From Octopus vulgaris (Eukaryota), in assembly GCA_951406725.2 (NCBI GenBank), contig OX597820.1, forward strand, positions 55,552,001 to 55,616,000: a stretch of DNA of 64,000 bases, written 5' to 3'. A program made the position numbers. Position 1 is the stretch's first letter. Each line of letters starts with the position of its first letter. Below are positions 25,150-54,900 of the stretch, in pieces.

Positions 25150-28100
25150 TATTTATTTTTATATATATAACTATATCTATATATATGTATGTACATTACA
25201 CATACACACACACATACATACTTGTTTATTATTCTACACCAGCAAGCAATGTAGCTGTTATGTAAATTACTAACATGCTGGTAATTATAGCAAAACTTAA
25301 CGTAAAAATAAAACACTGGTATGTGAATAATCTACATAACAAAACACCTGAAAATGTCTAATTTTCAAATCAGTATATCTGGTTTATTTATATCCTTTTA
25401 TAGTATAGAAACATAACAACAGTAGCTTTAAATAGAACTTCAGAGTAGCAGCATAATGTAGGGCATTTGACTGCTAATGAAGATTAATAAACTAAAAATG
25501 GCAATATCTGGTTAATTCTTCTTTTACAGAATGTAGTGAGGTTATATCATAAACATGCCCAAGAAGTTCCCTGGAAGTAGTAGAAAGTTTCTGTTACCTA
25601 GGTCACCTAATTAGCAGTGGAGCAGGATGTTCTGAAAGTATAGTTGGCTGAATAAGAATAGGATGGAAAAAGTTCTAGGAGTTATTACCACTGTTGGTAT
25701 TAAAATGTCTCTTCTTCAGAATGTTAGATAGATTGTGTGATACTTGTGTATGAACAGTAGTGTTACACGGGCCTTGAATGCTGAGGACATGCAAATGCCA
25801 GAAAGAAATGTATGCTACTGATGGGTGTGCAATATCAGTGCATGAACAACAAAGTGCAAATCAGATGTAGTTTGCAAAAGAGAATGCTGCACTGTATGCT
25901 CATGTCATACATATGGATGGAAGGCGCATGGCTTAATGGTTGTTGCTTGTTGTCTTTGTTACCTGTTAATAAAGTTTAACAAAATAGATAATGCAAATCA
26001 GTTGAACCACAAACCTACCTATACTCACTGTAATTTTAAACTAAAAACATGCAAAAGAAAAAAAATCAGGCACACAATCACAAGATCGTGATTTCAATTC
26101 CCAGCGACATGTTGTGTCCTTAGGCAAGACACTTTATTTCACATTGCTCCAGTACACTCAGCTGGCAAAAATGAATAGAACCTGTATTTCAAAGGGCCAG
26201 CCTTGTCATACTCTGTGTCTCGTGGAATCTCTCTAAGAACTATTTTAACCCTTTAGTGTTCTGATTATTCTATCAAACATAATGCCTATTGATTCCCATT
26301 GATTTGAATTAATCATGCATTATCTCATATCTTCAAGATCTTGATGGTGTAATTACTTAATGTAGAATAACATTGTAGGATAGGTGTGAGAGCCTAGATC
26401 TGGTCAGTTTGAACATAAAACAGATTAAATATTTTGGCCGGATATGGCCGGTTTAAATACTAAAGGGTTAAGGGCACATGTGTCTGTGGAGTGCTCAGCC
26501 ACTTGCATGTTAATTTCACGAGCAGGCTGTTCCATTGATTGGATCAACTGGAACCCTCATCATCATAATTGATGGAGTGGCAGCTACATGTGGATGATAA
26601 TAGCTGTATAAAGAAGTGTCAATCACTTCAAATGGCTAGAGCTTGTGGAAAAGGAAGAAGACTACAAAGGTGATAGACATTTTGCTGGGCTTGACAGGCT
26701 TGTCCAACATAGTAAAAGTGAAGTCCTAAAAGTATTAGGTTGACTATTAGACAGTTCTTCAGGTGGTTTTCTGTGAATCACTCAATAATAGTTACACAGT
26801 TGATTCCCAGCTTGAATAATTTTCCTGATATATTATGCCAAGTATTCCTTCATAAATTTATTGAGCACTCAGTGTTAGAATATATGGAGAAATCAGGTAT
26901 TATGTTGACTTAACGTAGCTATGTAAAAGTCTTCAATTTATAGCATATTTATCTATAATACATTAAAAGCCAGTTTCAGTCTTGCTTGCTTGCTTGTAAT
27001 GTTACTCAGTGAAACTGGTGCATATTGGGAAAATATTGTGAATTAAGTTTACTCTGAAATGTTAATATGAATCGAATGAAACTAATTTTGCGTAAATCGG
27101 CAAAGTAGTTTCCAAGATATTAGAGATTCTCAGGGTATAAATACCCAAAATGGTGCATAATGGGAAAATATTCCAAAAATAATCTTCAACCTGAAAGGGA
27201 AGAAATTCTTATCCTTTTATTAGACAGTGAGTTGACAACGGAAAAAAAAAAAACGATTTTTTTGTTTTTACAATTTCTACTTTTGCTTTTCTTAAACACC
27301 ATATTTTAATCATTTACAAATATTTTTAAGCGAATGTGATTTCAAAAATGTAAGCTGTTTGTACAGTAAGTATGTATATTGTAGCTAAACAGGCAATATT
27401 TTATTATTTTCTAAAATTATTTTCAAGTGAATACTATTACAAAAATATTTTTTGGCATACAAAAATATATTCTAAAGTAGAAATGAATTTAAAAATATGG
27501 TAGATTTTTTTGCTGAACTGCTAAGTTACATGGACGTAAACATACCAACATGAGTTGTCAAGTGAAGGTGGTGGTGGTGGTGGGGGTGGGGACAAACACT
27601 CACACAACAGGCTTCTTTCAGTTTCTGTTCACCAAATCCATTCACAAGGCTTTGGTTAGCCCGAGGCTATAGTAGAAGACTCTTGCCCAAGGTGTCATGC
27701 AGTGGGACTGAACCTGGAATCATGTGGTTGGTAAGCAAGCTACTTACCACACAGCTATTCCTGCACCTATATCATCATCGTTTAATGTCCGTTTTCCGCG
27801 CTAGCATGGGTTGGACGGTTTGACCGGGGTCTGGGAAGCCAGGAGGCTGCACCAGGCTCCAGTCTGATCTGGCAGTGTTTCTACAGCTGGATGCCCTTCC
27901 TAACGCCAACCACTCCGTGAGTGTAGTGGGTGCTTTTTACGTGCCACCGGCACAGGTGCCAGGAGAGTCTGGCAGCGGCCACGATCGGTTGGTGCTTTTA
28001 ACGTGCCACCGGCACGGAAGCCAGTCAAGGCGGCGCTGGCATCGGCCACGTTTGGATGGTGCTTTTTACGTGCCACCGGCACAGAAGCCAGTTCAGGCGG

Positions 28101-51901: not shown

Positions 51902-54900
51902 TACACACACACACACACATATATGTTGTGAAATATATTGAGTTTTAAACAAGTGCTTACTTGTCATACCTTCTAAAAGCACATAAAAAAGAATTTACAT
52001 AAAAATTCAGATATATATATATCTCAAAAGAGACCGATTGAAGACTACTGGTCAAATGACCTTACCTAAATTAACTCTCCCACTCCCTTATCTTTTTATT
52101 CCTTTTATTCTTTTCTATTTTCTTTTTTATATTCTTAATTTCTCTCCACATTTATATTCTCCACTCTTACTGTGCTCTCTACATATTTTGATCGAATCTT
52201 CTGCCTGTTAACAAGTACCTCCTTGCAACCATGTATACTTTCATTTAATCAAGACACCCTTGGCCTGACAAGCAGCCTGCGGTATACATCTTGCTTGAAT
52301 ATTTACCACTTCTGAGGTTCCACTTGCTATGAAACATATGTAACTCGGATCTTATCAACTGCATTTCCTTAACTCTTGCATTCTTATTTGCATACCCAGC
52401 AACCCTAGTTGCCTACTGGGAATTATAAAAAGAATTTTTTTCAGCTTATTGTACTTCAATATGAAAAAATCACAACCTTCCGCCTCAATAAATCACTATT
52501 ATTCCTAAAAGTTGTTTTTCATATCTACTATGGATTGCTTGAAGCTAACTTTCTTCCTACACCTTGATCCTGGGATCTTACATTTATATATATACTAGAC
52601 TACTGATGACCTGTTGGGTCACCAGGAAAGTCTGAGTTTTGTTTTGTGGGTCCTTTTTTCTTTTCCAGGTTATTTTGCATGCTTAGAACGAATGTGACAT
52701 AGAAATCACACATCAGTGGCTCCTTTACCCAGAAAAGGAAAGATTTGGCTGCTATTTCTTGCACACTTTGCTACTACATAATGGGTATTTCAAGTCCTTT
52801 ATCGCAAATAGCGGTTACGTGGTAACAGGGCATGCTAGAAATAGCAACCAAATCTTTCAAAATGAGATACATTGAATGTACTAAAAAAAAACCTATGGAA
52901 AAAAATTTCACACCAAGGTTACGAAAATTTTCGTAACGGTATTCATTTGAAAATAAATTTAAAAGATATTAAAATATTGTCAGTTGAAAGAAAGCTAAAA
53001 TATAAAAACTTTTTGTACAAACAACTTACAGTTTTGAAATCACATTTACTTAAAAATATTTCTCAATGATTAAAATATTGTGCTTAACAAAAGTGAAAAT
53101 AGAAACTGTAAAAAATTTGTATTGTTTCGTTGTCAAGTCAGTCTAACTGAAAGATAAGAATCACTTCCTTTTTAGGATTAAGTTAATTTCAGAGACTTTT
53201 CCCTTTATGCACAGTTTTGGGTATTTATACCCTGAAAACCCTTAATATTTTTACAACCACTTATCTGATTTATGTGAAATTTGTTTCATTCCATTTGTAT
53301 TTACATTTTAGGGGAACTTAATTCATAGTATTTTCCCATTATGTGCCAATTTGGCTGAGTAACATTGCAAGTTTAGTCATTCGACTGTGACCATGCTGGA
53401 GCACTGCCTTTTAGTCAAAGAAACCAACCCCTGGACTTATTCTTTGTAAGCCTCATGCTTATTATATCAGTCCCTTCTGATATAATGGCCACAGTTGAAT
53501 GACTGCTACAGTCATTTAACTGCAGCCATGCTGGAGCACTGCCTTTAGTCGAACAAATCCACACCAGGACTTATTTTTTGTAAGCCTAGTACTTATTCCA
53601 TCATTCTCTTTTGCTGAACTGTTAAGTTACAGGGACGTAAACAGACCAACATGAGTTGTCAAGCAATGGTTGGGGGCGGGGACAAACACAGACAGACAAA
53701 TACATACACATATAACAGGCTTCTTTCAGTTTCCATCTACGAAAACCACTCACAAGGCTTCAGTCGGCCCAAGGCTATAGTAGAAGACACTTGCCCAAGG
53801 TCCCAGGCAGTGCGACTGAACCCAGAACCATGTGGTTGGGAAGCAAGCTTCTTACCACACAGCAACTCCTGTGCCTATATATATATATATAACATGTGAT
53901 CTCTTAAGCACCACCAGCTCAAATATTTTCTCCTCTGTCTTCCCTCTTTGGGATCTTTCCTTCTCCTTGTTTCCAACGAAGAGCTCCGCTCGAAACGTTA
54001 AACCCTCCTTCCCTTCTTTCCTGAGCGTCAATAATACTTTAATTGTTCCACGTCCTGCGTTGCTGTGTTTTTTTCTCCTTTTTTTCTCTTTTTTTCTGTG
54101 TTTTCTTGTTTGGATTAACTATATATATATGCATGTATTTCTGTGTATGCTTGTGTAAGAAAATACAATTATGTGTAAGTATTTATGTGGGGGGATGTGC
54201 ATATATATATAAATGTAAATAGCTATACTGGTATATGTACAGATTTATATCTTGGTCATATATATATATATGAGAGAATGAATACATACTTCTACATACA
54301 TACATACATACATATATATATGTCTTATATTCCTGCCCACCACTACAAACTCAATACCACTATAAAATGGTCAAAACTTTTCACACAGGAACTTAGTTTG
54401 ACTTGAAAACCCCACTAGAATGGGAGAAAGTGCTAATACATGATCTAAGTTATATGATGTATAAAAAATGTAATATACAAATAAATATCTGTAAATATAA
54501 ACCATCCAATTTTCTGAGTACCTCATTTCTTCTAATATATATATATATAATACATTTAGGGTGTCTATATGCTTAAATACAGGTATGTATATGCATATAT
54601 GCACTATTGCTACTCCTATCCCCCTCTGCTTTCAGGTGCTTTTTTCTGAAGGTTTGGCAAGACTGAAAGAAAATGTAATTCATTGAGTAAGAATTACCTG
54701 TTTCACAGGACATGTGCAAGGACTCACTTCCTGTTGGCAGACATTCACAAATATATTCCTCTTCTTTATAGACTTAAAACAATAATACTCCAATTACTTG
54801 TTTCACTCTTCTGAAGTTCATATCATTAGGGCCACCACAAACAATGTCAACACAATGAAAGGCCGGTCTGGTGAGATTGCTGAAATGCTACAACAGAGGC

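What the first reader, a model, noticed from the sequence alone, without database searches (positions are those of the whole stretch)
26990..53372. Hidden ~26 kb nested palindrome filling most of one SRBD1 intron
Seen: four blocks of mostly non-TE sequence pair in strictly nested inverted order: 26990-27460/53372-52920, 37435-38715/50880-48486, 40420-40930/47935-47410 and 44600-44977/46915-46557, around a ~1.6 kb spacer. Later TE insertions have pulled the arms apart. Identity by eye is roughly 75-80% in the outermost block and near 100% at the centre. Established: long palindromes are unstable, and coleoid cephalopods edit RNA heavily with ADARs, which act on double-stranded RNA. Inference: both arms are in the same pre-mRNA, so they could form ~2.5 kb of interrupted duplex that folds up the 32 kb intron, attracts A-to-I editing or yields small RNAs. 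A neutral fold-back relic is the alternative.
Basis: partly seen in the sequence, partly recalled or inferred. Interest (0 to 1): 0.85.

Follow-up and report, generated by a model that had tools for sequence, protein, structure and literature searches.

The report
Old inverted duplication inside an octopus intron
One 32 kb intron of the octopus SRBD1 gene holds the decayed, transposon-riddled remains of an old inverted duplication; only its central ~385 bp could still fold into a long RNA hairpin, as ordinary nearby repeat pairs also can.

Summary
Four inverted blocks lie in strictly nested order. They are 26993-27449/53371-52924, 37455-38712/50363-48487, 40412-40937/47932-47407 and 44604-44988/46932-46546, around a 1,557 bp spacer. 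All lie in one 32,044 bp GT-AG intron of Octopus sinensis-type SRBD1 on the minus strand.

- The centre is 88% identical, 94% over its innermost 265 bp, with one 82 bp exact run. It is not "near 100%".
- About 27% of the block sequence is short interspersed repeat.
- The right end of block 2 is 50363, not 50880.

My best reading is a neutral relic of one old local inverted (fold-back type) duplication. Ungapped identity is 80-86% outside the centre. It was later stretched by transposon insertions; one is proven by a TTAA-flanked filled site facing an empty site. Arm-to-arm gene conversion then patched it unevenly.

Only the central pair meets the published working criteria for intramolecular dsRNA. 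Inverted repeat pairs of the same kind occur elsewhere in the window. Transitions show no bias toward G·U pairs on the sense RNA (108 against 130).

Genome-wide copy number, other octopods and RNA data could not be checked. Interest is low to moderate.

The parts
26993..27449 (.). B1 left: outermost block of the left arm
   Evidence: It pairs inverted with 52924-53371. The alignment has 463 columns, with 355 matches, 87 mismatches and 21 gap columns. K2P is 0.231 and the longest exact run is 21 bp. It has no other copy in the window.
37455..38712 (.). B2 left: the largest block
   Evidence: Its main part pairs inverted with 49237-50363 (1,218 columns, 943 matches, K2P 0.156). Its last 74 bp pair with 48487-48560. 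Identity per 100 columns ranges from 76% to 93%. About 180 bp (38436-38617) is a diverged X-like repeat. Its open reading frames match no Pfam family.
40412..40937 (.). B3 left: unique part 40412-40704 plus the first half of an X repeat, 40705-40937(-40990)
   Evidence: It pairs inverted with 47407-47932 (543 columns, 407 matches, K2P 0.238) as one uninterrupted alignment that runs from unique DNA into X.
44604..44988 (.). B4 left: second half of the same X repeat (to 44776) plus the unique inner part
   Evidence: It pairs inverted with 46546-46932 (387 columns, 340 matches). The inner tract 44716-44980 is 94.3% identical and holds an 82 bp exact run. Homology stops abruptly at about 44980-44990.
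44989..46545 (.). Spacer of 1,557 bp with no arm-to-arm homology
   Evidence: Shown. It holds an orphan reverse-transcriptase fragment on the minus strand at 45001-45186. Support for that fragment: Pfam RVT_1 at E = 0.003, below the curated cut-off; 66 phmmer hits at E <= 0.001 matching residues ~19-86 of the ORF; and tblastn. It also holds W-repeat pieces at 45200-45276 and 46002-46251.
46546..46932 (.). B4 right
   Evidence: Partner of 44604-44988. In the minimum-free-energy fold of the 2,416 nt sense RNA, 347 base pairs link the two arms in register, with helices of 82, 39, 34, 25 and 20 bp. The duplex energy is -564 kcal/mol against about -120 for shuffled arms.
47407..47932 (.). B3 right
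   Evidence: Partner of 40412-40937.
48487..50363 (.). B2 right, interrupted at 48557-49243 by a Z element that carries a nested X copy (48650-49100)
   Evidence: Shown. The insertion is flanked by TTAA on both sides. The left arm holds the uninterrupted, empty site at about 38640.
52924..53371 (.). B1 right: outermost block of the right arm
   Evidence: Partner of 26993-27449. Homology ends where X copies begin, at 53372.
23330..55373 (-). The SRBD1 intron (32,044 bp, GT..AG) that contains the whole structure
   Evidence: tblastn with the named O. sinensis protein P0001 places flanking exons at 55549-55374 and 23329-23242 on the minus strand. The splice sites were read directly from the sequence.

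Best explanation
This is the decayed relic of one old, local inverted duplication inside an SRBD1 intron: two arms in opposite orientation around a single-copy spacer, as fold-back or template-switch events produce.

The duplicated piece was ordinary intron DNA. At least 2.6 kb of it survives, and it already carried old short interspersed repeats. After the duplication, both arms took in transposons and microsatellites. The left arm grew to 18.0 kb and the right arm to 6.8 kb.

The arms drifted to about 80% ungapped identity, except for patches that arm-to-arm gene conversion re-homogenised. The clearest patch is the 265 bp next to the spacer.

I think it has no selected function. As a by-product, the central pair (B4) probably forms a hairpin of about 350 bp with a 1.56 kb loop in the pre-mRNA. 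ADARs probably hyper-edit it, as they edit the many inverted repeat pairs in octopus transcripts.

Shown here: the anatomy, the single-intron location, one insertion that post-dates the duplication, the mosaic of identity, and the predicted fold.
Inferred: that a single event made it, the mechanism of origin, gene conversion, and editing.
For: - Four inverted blocks in nested, colinear order, with similar divergence in B1, B3 and the outer part of B4 (K2P 0.21-0.24).
- The B3 and B4 alignments run without a break from unique DNA into the two halves of one X repeat, at the same junctions in both arms. So X was already present before the duplication, and the unit was composite genomic DNA rather than a single element.
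- A Z element with TTAA on both sides sits in the right arm inside B2, and the left arm keeps the empty site. The arms are therefore paralogous copies, and this insertion is later than the duplication.
- Between 43% and 72% of each gap between blocks is repeated elsewhere in the window, against 0-22% for B1 and B2 left.
- The inner tract is 250/265 identical, against 1795/2167 for the rest (Fisher p = 1.7e-7). The tract starts inside the X repeat, not at an element boundary. B2 is also a mosaic.
- The 1,557 bp spacer lies within the 766-70,466 bp range found at 21 of 21 sequenced human fold-back junctions (passages in PMC3907307).
- The sense-strand fold pairs the B4 arms in register over 347 bp.
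- B4 satisfies both published criteria for intramolecular dsRNA: at least 65% identity within +/-2 kb, and at least 80% identity over at least 50 nt within +/-2 kb (passages in PMC5625713 and PMC9989829).
- There is no excess of G.U over A.C on the sense RNA (108 against 130, p = 0.17), which fits neutrality.
Against: - Genome-wide copy number of the blocks could not be measured, because no octopus genome was available. The window can only exclude very high copy numbers.
- No outgroup was available. Gene conversion therefore cannot be told apart from local constraint or from a later re-duplication of the centre.
- B2 is less diverged (K2P 0.156) than B1 and B3 (0.23-0.24). That needs conversion or rate variation to explain.
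- About 1.8 kb of the right arm (47041-47406, 50364-50912, 52023-52923) has neither a partner in the left arm nor a recognised repeat. Deletions or unrecognised insertions must be assumed.
- No junction microhomology or target-site duplication that would fix the mechanism of origin can be recovered at this age.
- No RNA data were available. Hairpin formation and editing are predictions only.
Confidence: 0.75

Rival explanations
1. Two copies of one low- or mid-copy non-coding transposon of at least 2.7 kb landed head-to-head by independent insertion, or the blocks are the long terminal inverted repeats of one giant element. Both copies were later riddled with insertions.
For: Genome-wide copy number is untested. 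The absence of extra copies in the other 37.6 kb of the window only excludes families of roughly 100,000 copies or more (my arithmetic, taking a genome size of about 2.7 Gb from memory). B1 has internal tandem-like repeats (27263-27349 similar to 27356-27446), as some non-autonomous elements do.
Against: The unit contains an older X repeat embedded between unique flanks, and a second X-like fragment in B2. It therefore looks like ordinary genomic DNA. There are no terminal motifs or target-site duplications at the outer ends. No ORF in the interior exceeds 172 aa outside microsatellites, and there are no integrase, polymerase or capsid-type Pfam hits; only orphan RT and transposase remnants appear. 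For a family of about 1,000 copies, two independent copies within 26 kb would be expected in roughly 1% of cases (my arithmetic).
Confidence: 0.12
2. The structure, or at least its central hairpin, is kept by selection as a functional RNA. It could be a source of small RNAs of the hairpin-RNA type, a dedicated ADAR substrate, or a bridge that shortens the effective length of the 32 kb intron for splicing.
For: The innermost 265 bp are 94% identical with an 82 bp perfect helix, while the rest is about 83%. The sense-RNA fold pairs 347 bp in register. Octopus shows an exceptionally high hyper-editing signal (passages in PMC5625713). Long-range intronic pairings linked to splicing are described in other animals (PMC8052449 and PMC4691745, search listing and abstract starts only).
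Against: Transitions show no bias toward G.U on the sense strand (B4: 20 against 16; all blocks: 108 against 130). Rfam found no family anywhere in the window. The B1 arms lie 2.0 kb and 3.7 kb from the splice sites, not next to them. B4 is one of 6 inverted pairs in the window that are at least 150 bp long and 80% identical with a loop of 3 kb or less; Y-Y pairs of 92-94% identity over 240-255 bp sit in the same gene. The high-identity tract is equally well explained by gene conversion.
Confidence: 0.08
3. It is an assembly artefact, such as a fold-back chimeric read or a misjoined haplotype.
For: Palindromes are a known product of chimeric long reads (general knowledge, not tested here). No read data were available.
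Against: The arms differ by 12-25%, by many indels, and by whole transposon insertions that are private to one arm. An artefactual fold-back would be close to 100% identical, and haplotypes would be in direct orientation. The window has no N.
Confidence: 0.02

Closest known systems
Fold-back inverted duplications with a single-copy spacer (Hermetz et al. 2014, PMC3907307, passages read; Pol-delta-dependent foldback priming, PMC10622511, search listing only)
   Same: Two inverted arms flank a non-duplicated spacer of kilobase size. The spacer here is 1,557 bp, against 766-70,466 bp (median 3,428 bp) in the human cases.
   Different: The human cases are megabase-scale, terminal, recent and pathogenic. 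This one is interstitial and intronic, retains only about 2.6 kb of homology, and is old (K2P about 0.23). Junction microhomology can no longer be read.
Large sex-chromosome palindromes maintained by arm-to-arm gene conversion (PMC8327919, PMC8981503, PMC3723533: search listings and abstract starts only)
   Same: The layout is arms plus spacer, and there are patches of raised arm-to-arm identity that fit gene conversion.
   Different: Those palindromes have arms longer than 8-10 kb, carry genes and are more than 99% identical. This one is 77-88% identical, has no genes and is broken up by insertions. Conversion has evidently failed to keep up.
Inverted repeat pairs (for example inverted Alu or SINE pairs) that form intramolecular dsRNA and are hyper-edited by ADAR (PMC5625713, PMC9989829, passages read)
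   Same: The B4 arms lie in one transcript, 1.56 kb apart and 88% identical over 385 bp. They meet both papers' working definitions of a putative dsRNA.
   Different: About half of each B4 arm is low-copy DNA from a local duplication rather than two independent repeat insertions. Editing itself was not observed here.
Drosophila-type hairpin RNA (hpRNA) loci that yield endogenous siRNAs (recalled, no paper read)
   Same: There is a long inverted repeat with a loop, transcribed as a single RNA.
   Different: There is no evidence of small RNAs and no homology to a target gene. The hairpin is intronic rather than a dedicated transcript.

Membership tests
Inverted (palindromic) segmental duplication of fold-back type | Two arms in inverted orientation with colinear homology | tested here: met
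   Four blocks lie in nested order: 2,685 aligned columns with 2,103 matches.
Inverted (palindromic) segmental duplication of fold-back type | A non-duplicated spacer between the arms | tested here: met
   Positions 44989-46545 show no arm-to-arm homology. The size is within the published range.
Inverted (palindromic) segmental duplication of fold-back type | The arms are local low-copy paralogues, not independent copies of a dispersed repeat | tested here: inconclusive
   There are no other copies in the window. Filled and empty sites show the arms are homologous. An embedded older X repeat has shared junctions in both arms. Genome-wide copy number could not be tested.
Inverted (palindromic) segmental duplication of fold-back type | Short inverted microhomology at the junction of spacer and arm | not testable with these tools
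   With 6-20% divergence and indels at the inner edges, the original junction cannot be reconstructed.
Gene-conversion-maintained large palindromes (sex-chromosome type) | Arm-to-arm identity above 99% over arms of many kb | tested here: not met
   Identity is 77-88% per block, and 94% only over 265 bp.
ADAR hyper-editing substrate formed by nearby inverted repeats | A reverse-complement match within +/-2 kb in the same transcript (at least 65% identity, or at least 80% over at least 50 nt) | tested here: met
   This is met by B4 only: 88% over 385 bp with a 1,557 nt loop, both arms in one intron. B1-B3 are 6.5-25.5 kb apart and fail the distance criterion.
ADAR hyper-editing substrate formed by nearby inverted repeats | Clusters of A-to-G mismatches in RNA reads | not testable with these tools
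Hairpin-RNA / endo-siRNA locus | Small RNAs of 20-23 nt from the stem, and homology to a target gene | not testable with these tools
   No small-RNA data were available. As partial checks, there were no Rfam hits, no Pfam family for ORFs in the arms, and no other match to the B4 inner part in the window.
Transposon with long terminal inverted repeats (Foldback, Maverick/Polinton and the like) | Internal element genes and flanking target-site duplications | tested here: not met
   The interior holds only fragments of unrelated elements and no long ORF. No duplication or terminal motif is visible at 26993 or 53371.
Intron-bridging RNA structures that assist splicing | Complementary boxes close to both splice sites, with conservation or compensatory change | tested here: inconclusive
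   The outermost arms lie 2,002 nt from the donor and 3,663 nt from the acceptor. There is no G.U bias on the sense strand. Conservation in other species could not be tested.

The most novel reading that the evidence does not exclude
The central hairpin is not just a relic. Its 265 bp tract at 94% identity, with an 82 bp perfect helix, would be held together by selection. The SRBD1 intron would then deliver a long dsRNA that either feeds a small-RNA pathway or acts as a dedicated high-affinity ADAR substrate in octopus tissues. It would be a hairpin-RNA locus nested in the gene for an RNA-binding protein.
Probability: 0.05. Interest if true: 0.6.

Novelty: new member of a known kind. Interest (0 to 1): 0.25.

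Why it matters
If the neutral reading is right, this is a tidy worked example of how an inverted duplication ages in a repeat-rich cephalopod genome. It shows unequal growth of the arms by insertion, a datable order of repeat activity, and patchy gene conversion. It also adds one more predicted intronic dsRNA to the very many in octopus transcripts. It would matter more only if the central hairpin proved to be conserved or processed. In that case it would be a rare candidate for a functional long hairpin RNA in a mollusc.

Tried and rejected
- **Rfam and tRNA scans.** Rfam at gathering thresholds and ARAGORN found nothing in the window. The X, Y, W and Z repeat classes therefore stay unassigned, apart from Z.
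- **Protein database as a proxy for copy number or orthologues.** A search with a 122 aa ORF from B2 gave 0 significant hits among 102 candidates. This is uninformative, because such non-coding ORFs are evidently not in that database.
- **B4 inner part as reverse-transcriptase sequence.** Rejected. The Pfam RVT_1 match, the phmmer matches (66 hits, residues ~19-86) and tblastn with 9 longer hits all confine the RT fragment to 45001-45186 in the spacer.
- **RT pieces at 42206-42601 and 45001-45186 as halves of one split LINE.** Considered, then dropped when I read the ORF by eye: both pieces cover the same RT motif region. No call tested this.
- **More homology between or outside the blocks.** A search found only microsatellite matches, a Y-Y match, and one 51 bp low-complexity match.
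- **Giant-transposon reading.** Rejected on ORF content.
- **Time-out.** It was replaced.
- **Not attempted.** I did not search other cephalopod genomes. I made or searched no joined (spliced) SRBD1 model. One exon was searched on its own, and named reference proteins were mapped onto the window.

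
Full report
**What the window is.**
The window has no N. The peptide encoded by 59365-59517 on the minus strand is 100% identical to the named protein [quoted passage not shown] (P0001). It is 94% identical to the O. bimaculoides protein.

tblastn with P0001 places four exons on the minus strand:
- 62781-62665
- 59517-59341
- 55549-55373
- 23352-23242

Reading the junctions directly gives a donor ...TGCAA|GTAAGT and an acceptor ...TTTTTTTAG|A, with a lysine codon split across them. 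The intron therefore runs 23330-55373, which is 32,044 bp. I searched one exon on its own and mapped named reference proteins onto the window. I made or searched no joined spliced model.

**The observation.**
Self-BLAST against the reverse complement, with global alignments, recovers the four blocks in strictly nested order.

| Block | Left arm | Right arm | Columns | Identity with gaps | Identity without gaps | K2P | Longest exact run |
|---|---|---|---|---|---|---|---|
| B1 | 26993-27449 | 53371-52924 | 463 | 76.7% | 80.3% | 0.231 | 21 bp |
| B2 | 37455-38641 | 50363-49237 | 1,218 | 77.4% | 86.0% | 0.156 | 30 bp |
| B3 | 40412-40937 | 47932-47407 | 543 | 75.0% | 80.0% | 0.238 | 31 bp |
| B4 | 44604-44988 | 46932-46546 | 387 | 87.9% | 88.3% | 0.130 | 82 bp |

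- B2 continues as 38639-38712 <-> 48560-48487 (78%) beyond an insertion in the right arm.
- The spacer is 44989-46545 (1,557 bp), and homology stops abruptly at its edges.
- The left arm spans 17,996 bp and the right arm 6,826 bp. The whole structure is 26,379 bp, or 82% of the intron.
- No further colinear homology exists between the blocks or outside them.

- The centre is 88% identical, not near 100%. Only 44716-44980 reaches 94.3% (250 matches, 15 mismatches), against 82.8% for everything else (1,795 matches, 372 mismatches; Fisher p = 1.7e-7).
- Identity is a mosaic rather than a gradient. Windows within B2 range from 76% to 93%.
- The blocks are only partly non-repeat. The share repeated elsewhere in the window is 0% for B1, 22% for B2 left, 44% for B3 left and 55% for B4 left.

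**What the blocks are made of.**
The window carries several short interspersed repeat families. The labels are mine, and their classes were not established, because Rfam and ARAGORN found nothing.
- Y: about 150-370 bp. 22 copies, 9 of them in this intron.
- X: about 170-450 bp. 21 copies or fragments, 13 of them in this intron.
- W: 6 copies.
- Z: 3 loci.

B3 consists of unique DNA followed by the first half of an X copy. B4 consists of the second half of X followed by unique DNA. In both arms the alignments pass from unique DNA into X without a break. So B3 and B4 are one ancestral segment that already contained an X copy. That copy was later split in both arms, by 3.6 kb of insertions on the left and 475 bp on the right. 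B2 also contains an older X-like fragment of about 180 bp.

No ORF in the arms matches a Pfam family. The duplicated unit therefore looks like ordinary intron DNA with embedded old repeats, not a single mobile element.

**Proof that insertions separated the arms.**
Inside B2 the right arm carries a Z element (48557-49243) with an X copy nested in it. It starts with TTAA-CCCTTTAG and ends with CTAAAG-TTAA. The left arm is uninterrupted at the matching point and reads CTAA where the right arm reads TTAA. The two other Z loci end in the same way.

A TTAA duplication with CCC...GGG ends is what I recall for piggyBac-type elements. That class assignment is from memory, not from a call.

Between 43% and 72% of each gap between blocks is repeated elsewhere in the window. 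The gaps also hold these remnants:
- A likely Tc1/mariner transposase remnant at 34676-35191. This was judged by eye; Pfam found no family.
- LINE-like ORFs at 39188-39403 and 42206-42984. These were also judged by eye; Pfam found no family for them.
- Microsatellite arrays at 36073-36740.

**Relative chronology (inference).**
- X copies differ from one another by 10-37%, and one lies inside the duplicated unit.
- The youngest Y copies are 90-93% identical to the reference copy and are private to one arm.
- The X family was still active after the duplication, because an X copy is nested in the post-duplication Z insertion.

**The spacer.**
It holds an orphan reverse-transcriptase fragment on the minus strand at 45001-45186. 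Three results support this:
- Pfam RVT_1 at E = 0.003, below the curated cut-off.
- 66 phmmer hits at E <= 0.001, with best matches to residues ~19-86 of the 151 aa ORF.
- tblastn with 9 of those 66 hits, chosen for being at least 350 aa long.

The fragment ends about 13 bp from the inner edge of B4 left, and its downstream part is missing. That is what a rearrangement breakpoint would leave. The inner part of B4 itself is not RT-derived. The spacer also holds W-repeat pieces.

**Could it be chance or coincidence?**
If the blocks were 3-4 unrelated repeat pairs, all being inverted and perfectly nested has a probability of about 1/48 to 1/384 (my arithmetic). The non-repeat parts have no extra copy in the remaining 37.6 kb. 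That only excludes families of roughly 100,000 copies or more, taking a genome size of about 2.7 Gb from memory. For rarer families, two independent copies within 26 kb would be improbable in itself. Together with the shared unique-to-X junctions and the similar divergence of B1, B3 and outer B4, a single local duplication is by far the simplest account. Genome-wide copy number remains unchecked.

**Origin.**
Arms around a single-copy spacer of kilobase size match fold-back inverted duplications. In the human series, 21 of 21 sequenced junctions had a spacer of 766-70,466 bp, median 3,428 bp (passages in PMC3907307). Foldback priming is also described in PMC10622511, which I saw only in a search listing. 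Replication template switching would give the same layout. The junction microhomology that would decide between them cannot be read after this much decay.

**Is the DNA palindrome dangerous?**
No, according to passages in PMC10164571, which studied inverted Alu pairs in yeast:
- Lengthening the spacer from 12 to 20 bp cut recombination about 40-fold.
- Rearrangement rates fell about 15-, 58- and 1,087-fold at 94%, 86% and 75% homology.

With a 1.56 kb spacer and 75-88% identity, this structure should be stable in double-stranded DNA.

**RNA level.**
The gene is on the minus strand, so both arms are in one pre-mRNA.
- The minimum-free-energy fold of the sense RNA for 46975-44560 (2,416 nt, -963.7 kcal/mol) pairs B4 right with B4 left in register over 347 bp. 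The uninterrupted helices are 82, 39, 34, 25 and 20 bp long.
- Duplex energies far exceed shuffled controls for all blocks, as complementarity requires. B4 gives -564 against about -120, B1 -378 against -89, B3 -532 against -148, and B2 -1,336 against -308 kcal/mol, with 5 shuffles each.
- Editing surveys look for partners within +/-2 kb: at least 65% identity in PMC5625713, and at least 80% over at least 50 nt in PMC9989829. PMC5625713 also reports an exceptionally high hyper-editing signal in O. bimaculoides (passages). B4 meets these criteria. B1, B2 and B3 are 25.5, 10.6 and 6.5 kb apart and do not.
- B4 is not unique in kind. The window has 6 inverted pairs that are at least 150 bp long and 80% identical with a loop of 3 kb or less. 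They include Y-Y pairs of 92-94% identity over 240-255 bp.
- As a test for selection on the sense-strand duplex, I counted transitions that leave G.U against those that leave A.C. All blocks together give 108 against 130 (p = 0.17), and B4 alone gives 20 against 16. There is no signal.
- The outermost arms lie 2,002 nt from the donor and 3,663 nt from the acceptor. They are not placed like the splice-site-proximal bridges described in PMC4691745 and PMC8052449, which I saw only as listings.

**The high-identity centre.**
The 265 bp tract begins inside the X repeat rather than at an element boundary, and B2 has similar patches. Arm-to-arm gene conversion is well known in large palindromes (PMC8981503 and PMC3723533, listings only) and explains this most simply. 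Constraint, or a later re-duplication, cannot be excluded without an outgroup.

**Novelty and the literature.**
A full-text search for SRBD1 with "cephalopod" found 0 papers. In a search for octopus with palindrome, inverted duplication or segmental duplication, none of the 10 papers listed contained the word octopus; 62 papers held at least 4 of the 5 terms. The locus itself is therefore apparently undescribed. Even so, it belongs to a known kind, a decayed inverted segmental duplication. Supplementary files of papers were closed, and editing-site tables there might list this intron.

**Verdict.**
The most likely explanation is a neutral relic (confidence 0.75), with a probably edited central hairpin as a by-product. 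Interest is 0.25.

Noticed in passing
window 21857-21985 and 22444-22572: A much younger inverted pair: 129 bp at 98.4% identity with a 458 bp loop. It lies in the next SRBD1 intron downstream. It encloses a piece (21945-22173) that matches a transposase-like ORF region at 7416-7659 in inverted orientation at 74%. It is probably a small element with long terminal inverted repeats, and a better dsRNA candidate per base pair than blocks B1-B3.
   Followed up: no
window 26245-26471, 48557-49243, 58433-58627: Repeat family Z, about 230 bp, flanked by TTAA and ending CCCTTTAG...CTAAAGGG. This is the pattern I recall for piggyBac-type miniature elements. One copy supplies the filled site facing an empty site inside block 2.
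   Followed up: partly
window 24806-25196, 36073-36740, 54116-54330 (also 9900-10100, 11800-12050, 12700-12860, 16800-17040): Long TA-rich or TA/CA microsatellite arrays. The first is 98% self-complementary over 337 bp. Arrays on both sides of the palindrome match each other in inverted orientation at about 67%. They give the same intron further low-complexity pairing potential.
   Followed up: no
window 60253-60780 (+), with 60868-61104 (+): A mariner-type transposase remnant in another SRBD1 intron: Pfam Transposase_1, E = 1e-16, above the curated cut-off. Similar-looking remnants at 7437-7676(-), 15290-15553(-) and 34676-35191(-) gave no Pfam hit.
   Followed up: partly
window 10972-11442 (-) and 10649-11014 (-): A second reverse-transcriptase fragment, of the same general type as the one in the spacer (tblastn). 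Next to it is an ORF with weak PHD/C1-type zinc-finger matches, below the curated cut-offs.
   Followed up: no
window 3888-4306 and 46760-47041: The same head-to-head junction of a Y copy with the second half of X occurs twice. Either the microsatellite inside X is an insertion hot spot for Y, or the two form a composite repeat.
   Followed up: no
window 2807-3222; 51279-51853: A tandem duplication of the W repeat, 85-90% identical to the copy at 47989-48247. Separately, a 575 bp stretch in the right arm is 65% self-complementary.
   Followed up: no
window 33584-33870 and 45540-45836: An inverted pair of 311 columns at 71% identity, with no other copy in the window. One member lies in the left arm's B1-B2 gap and the other in the spacer. 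It is not colinear with the palindrome and is unexplained.
   Followed up: no
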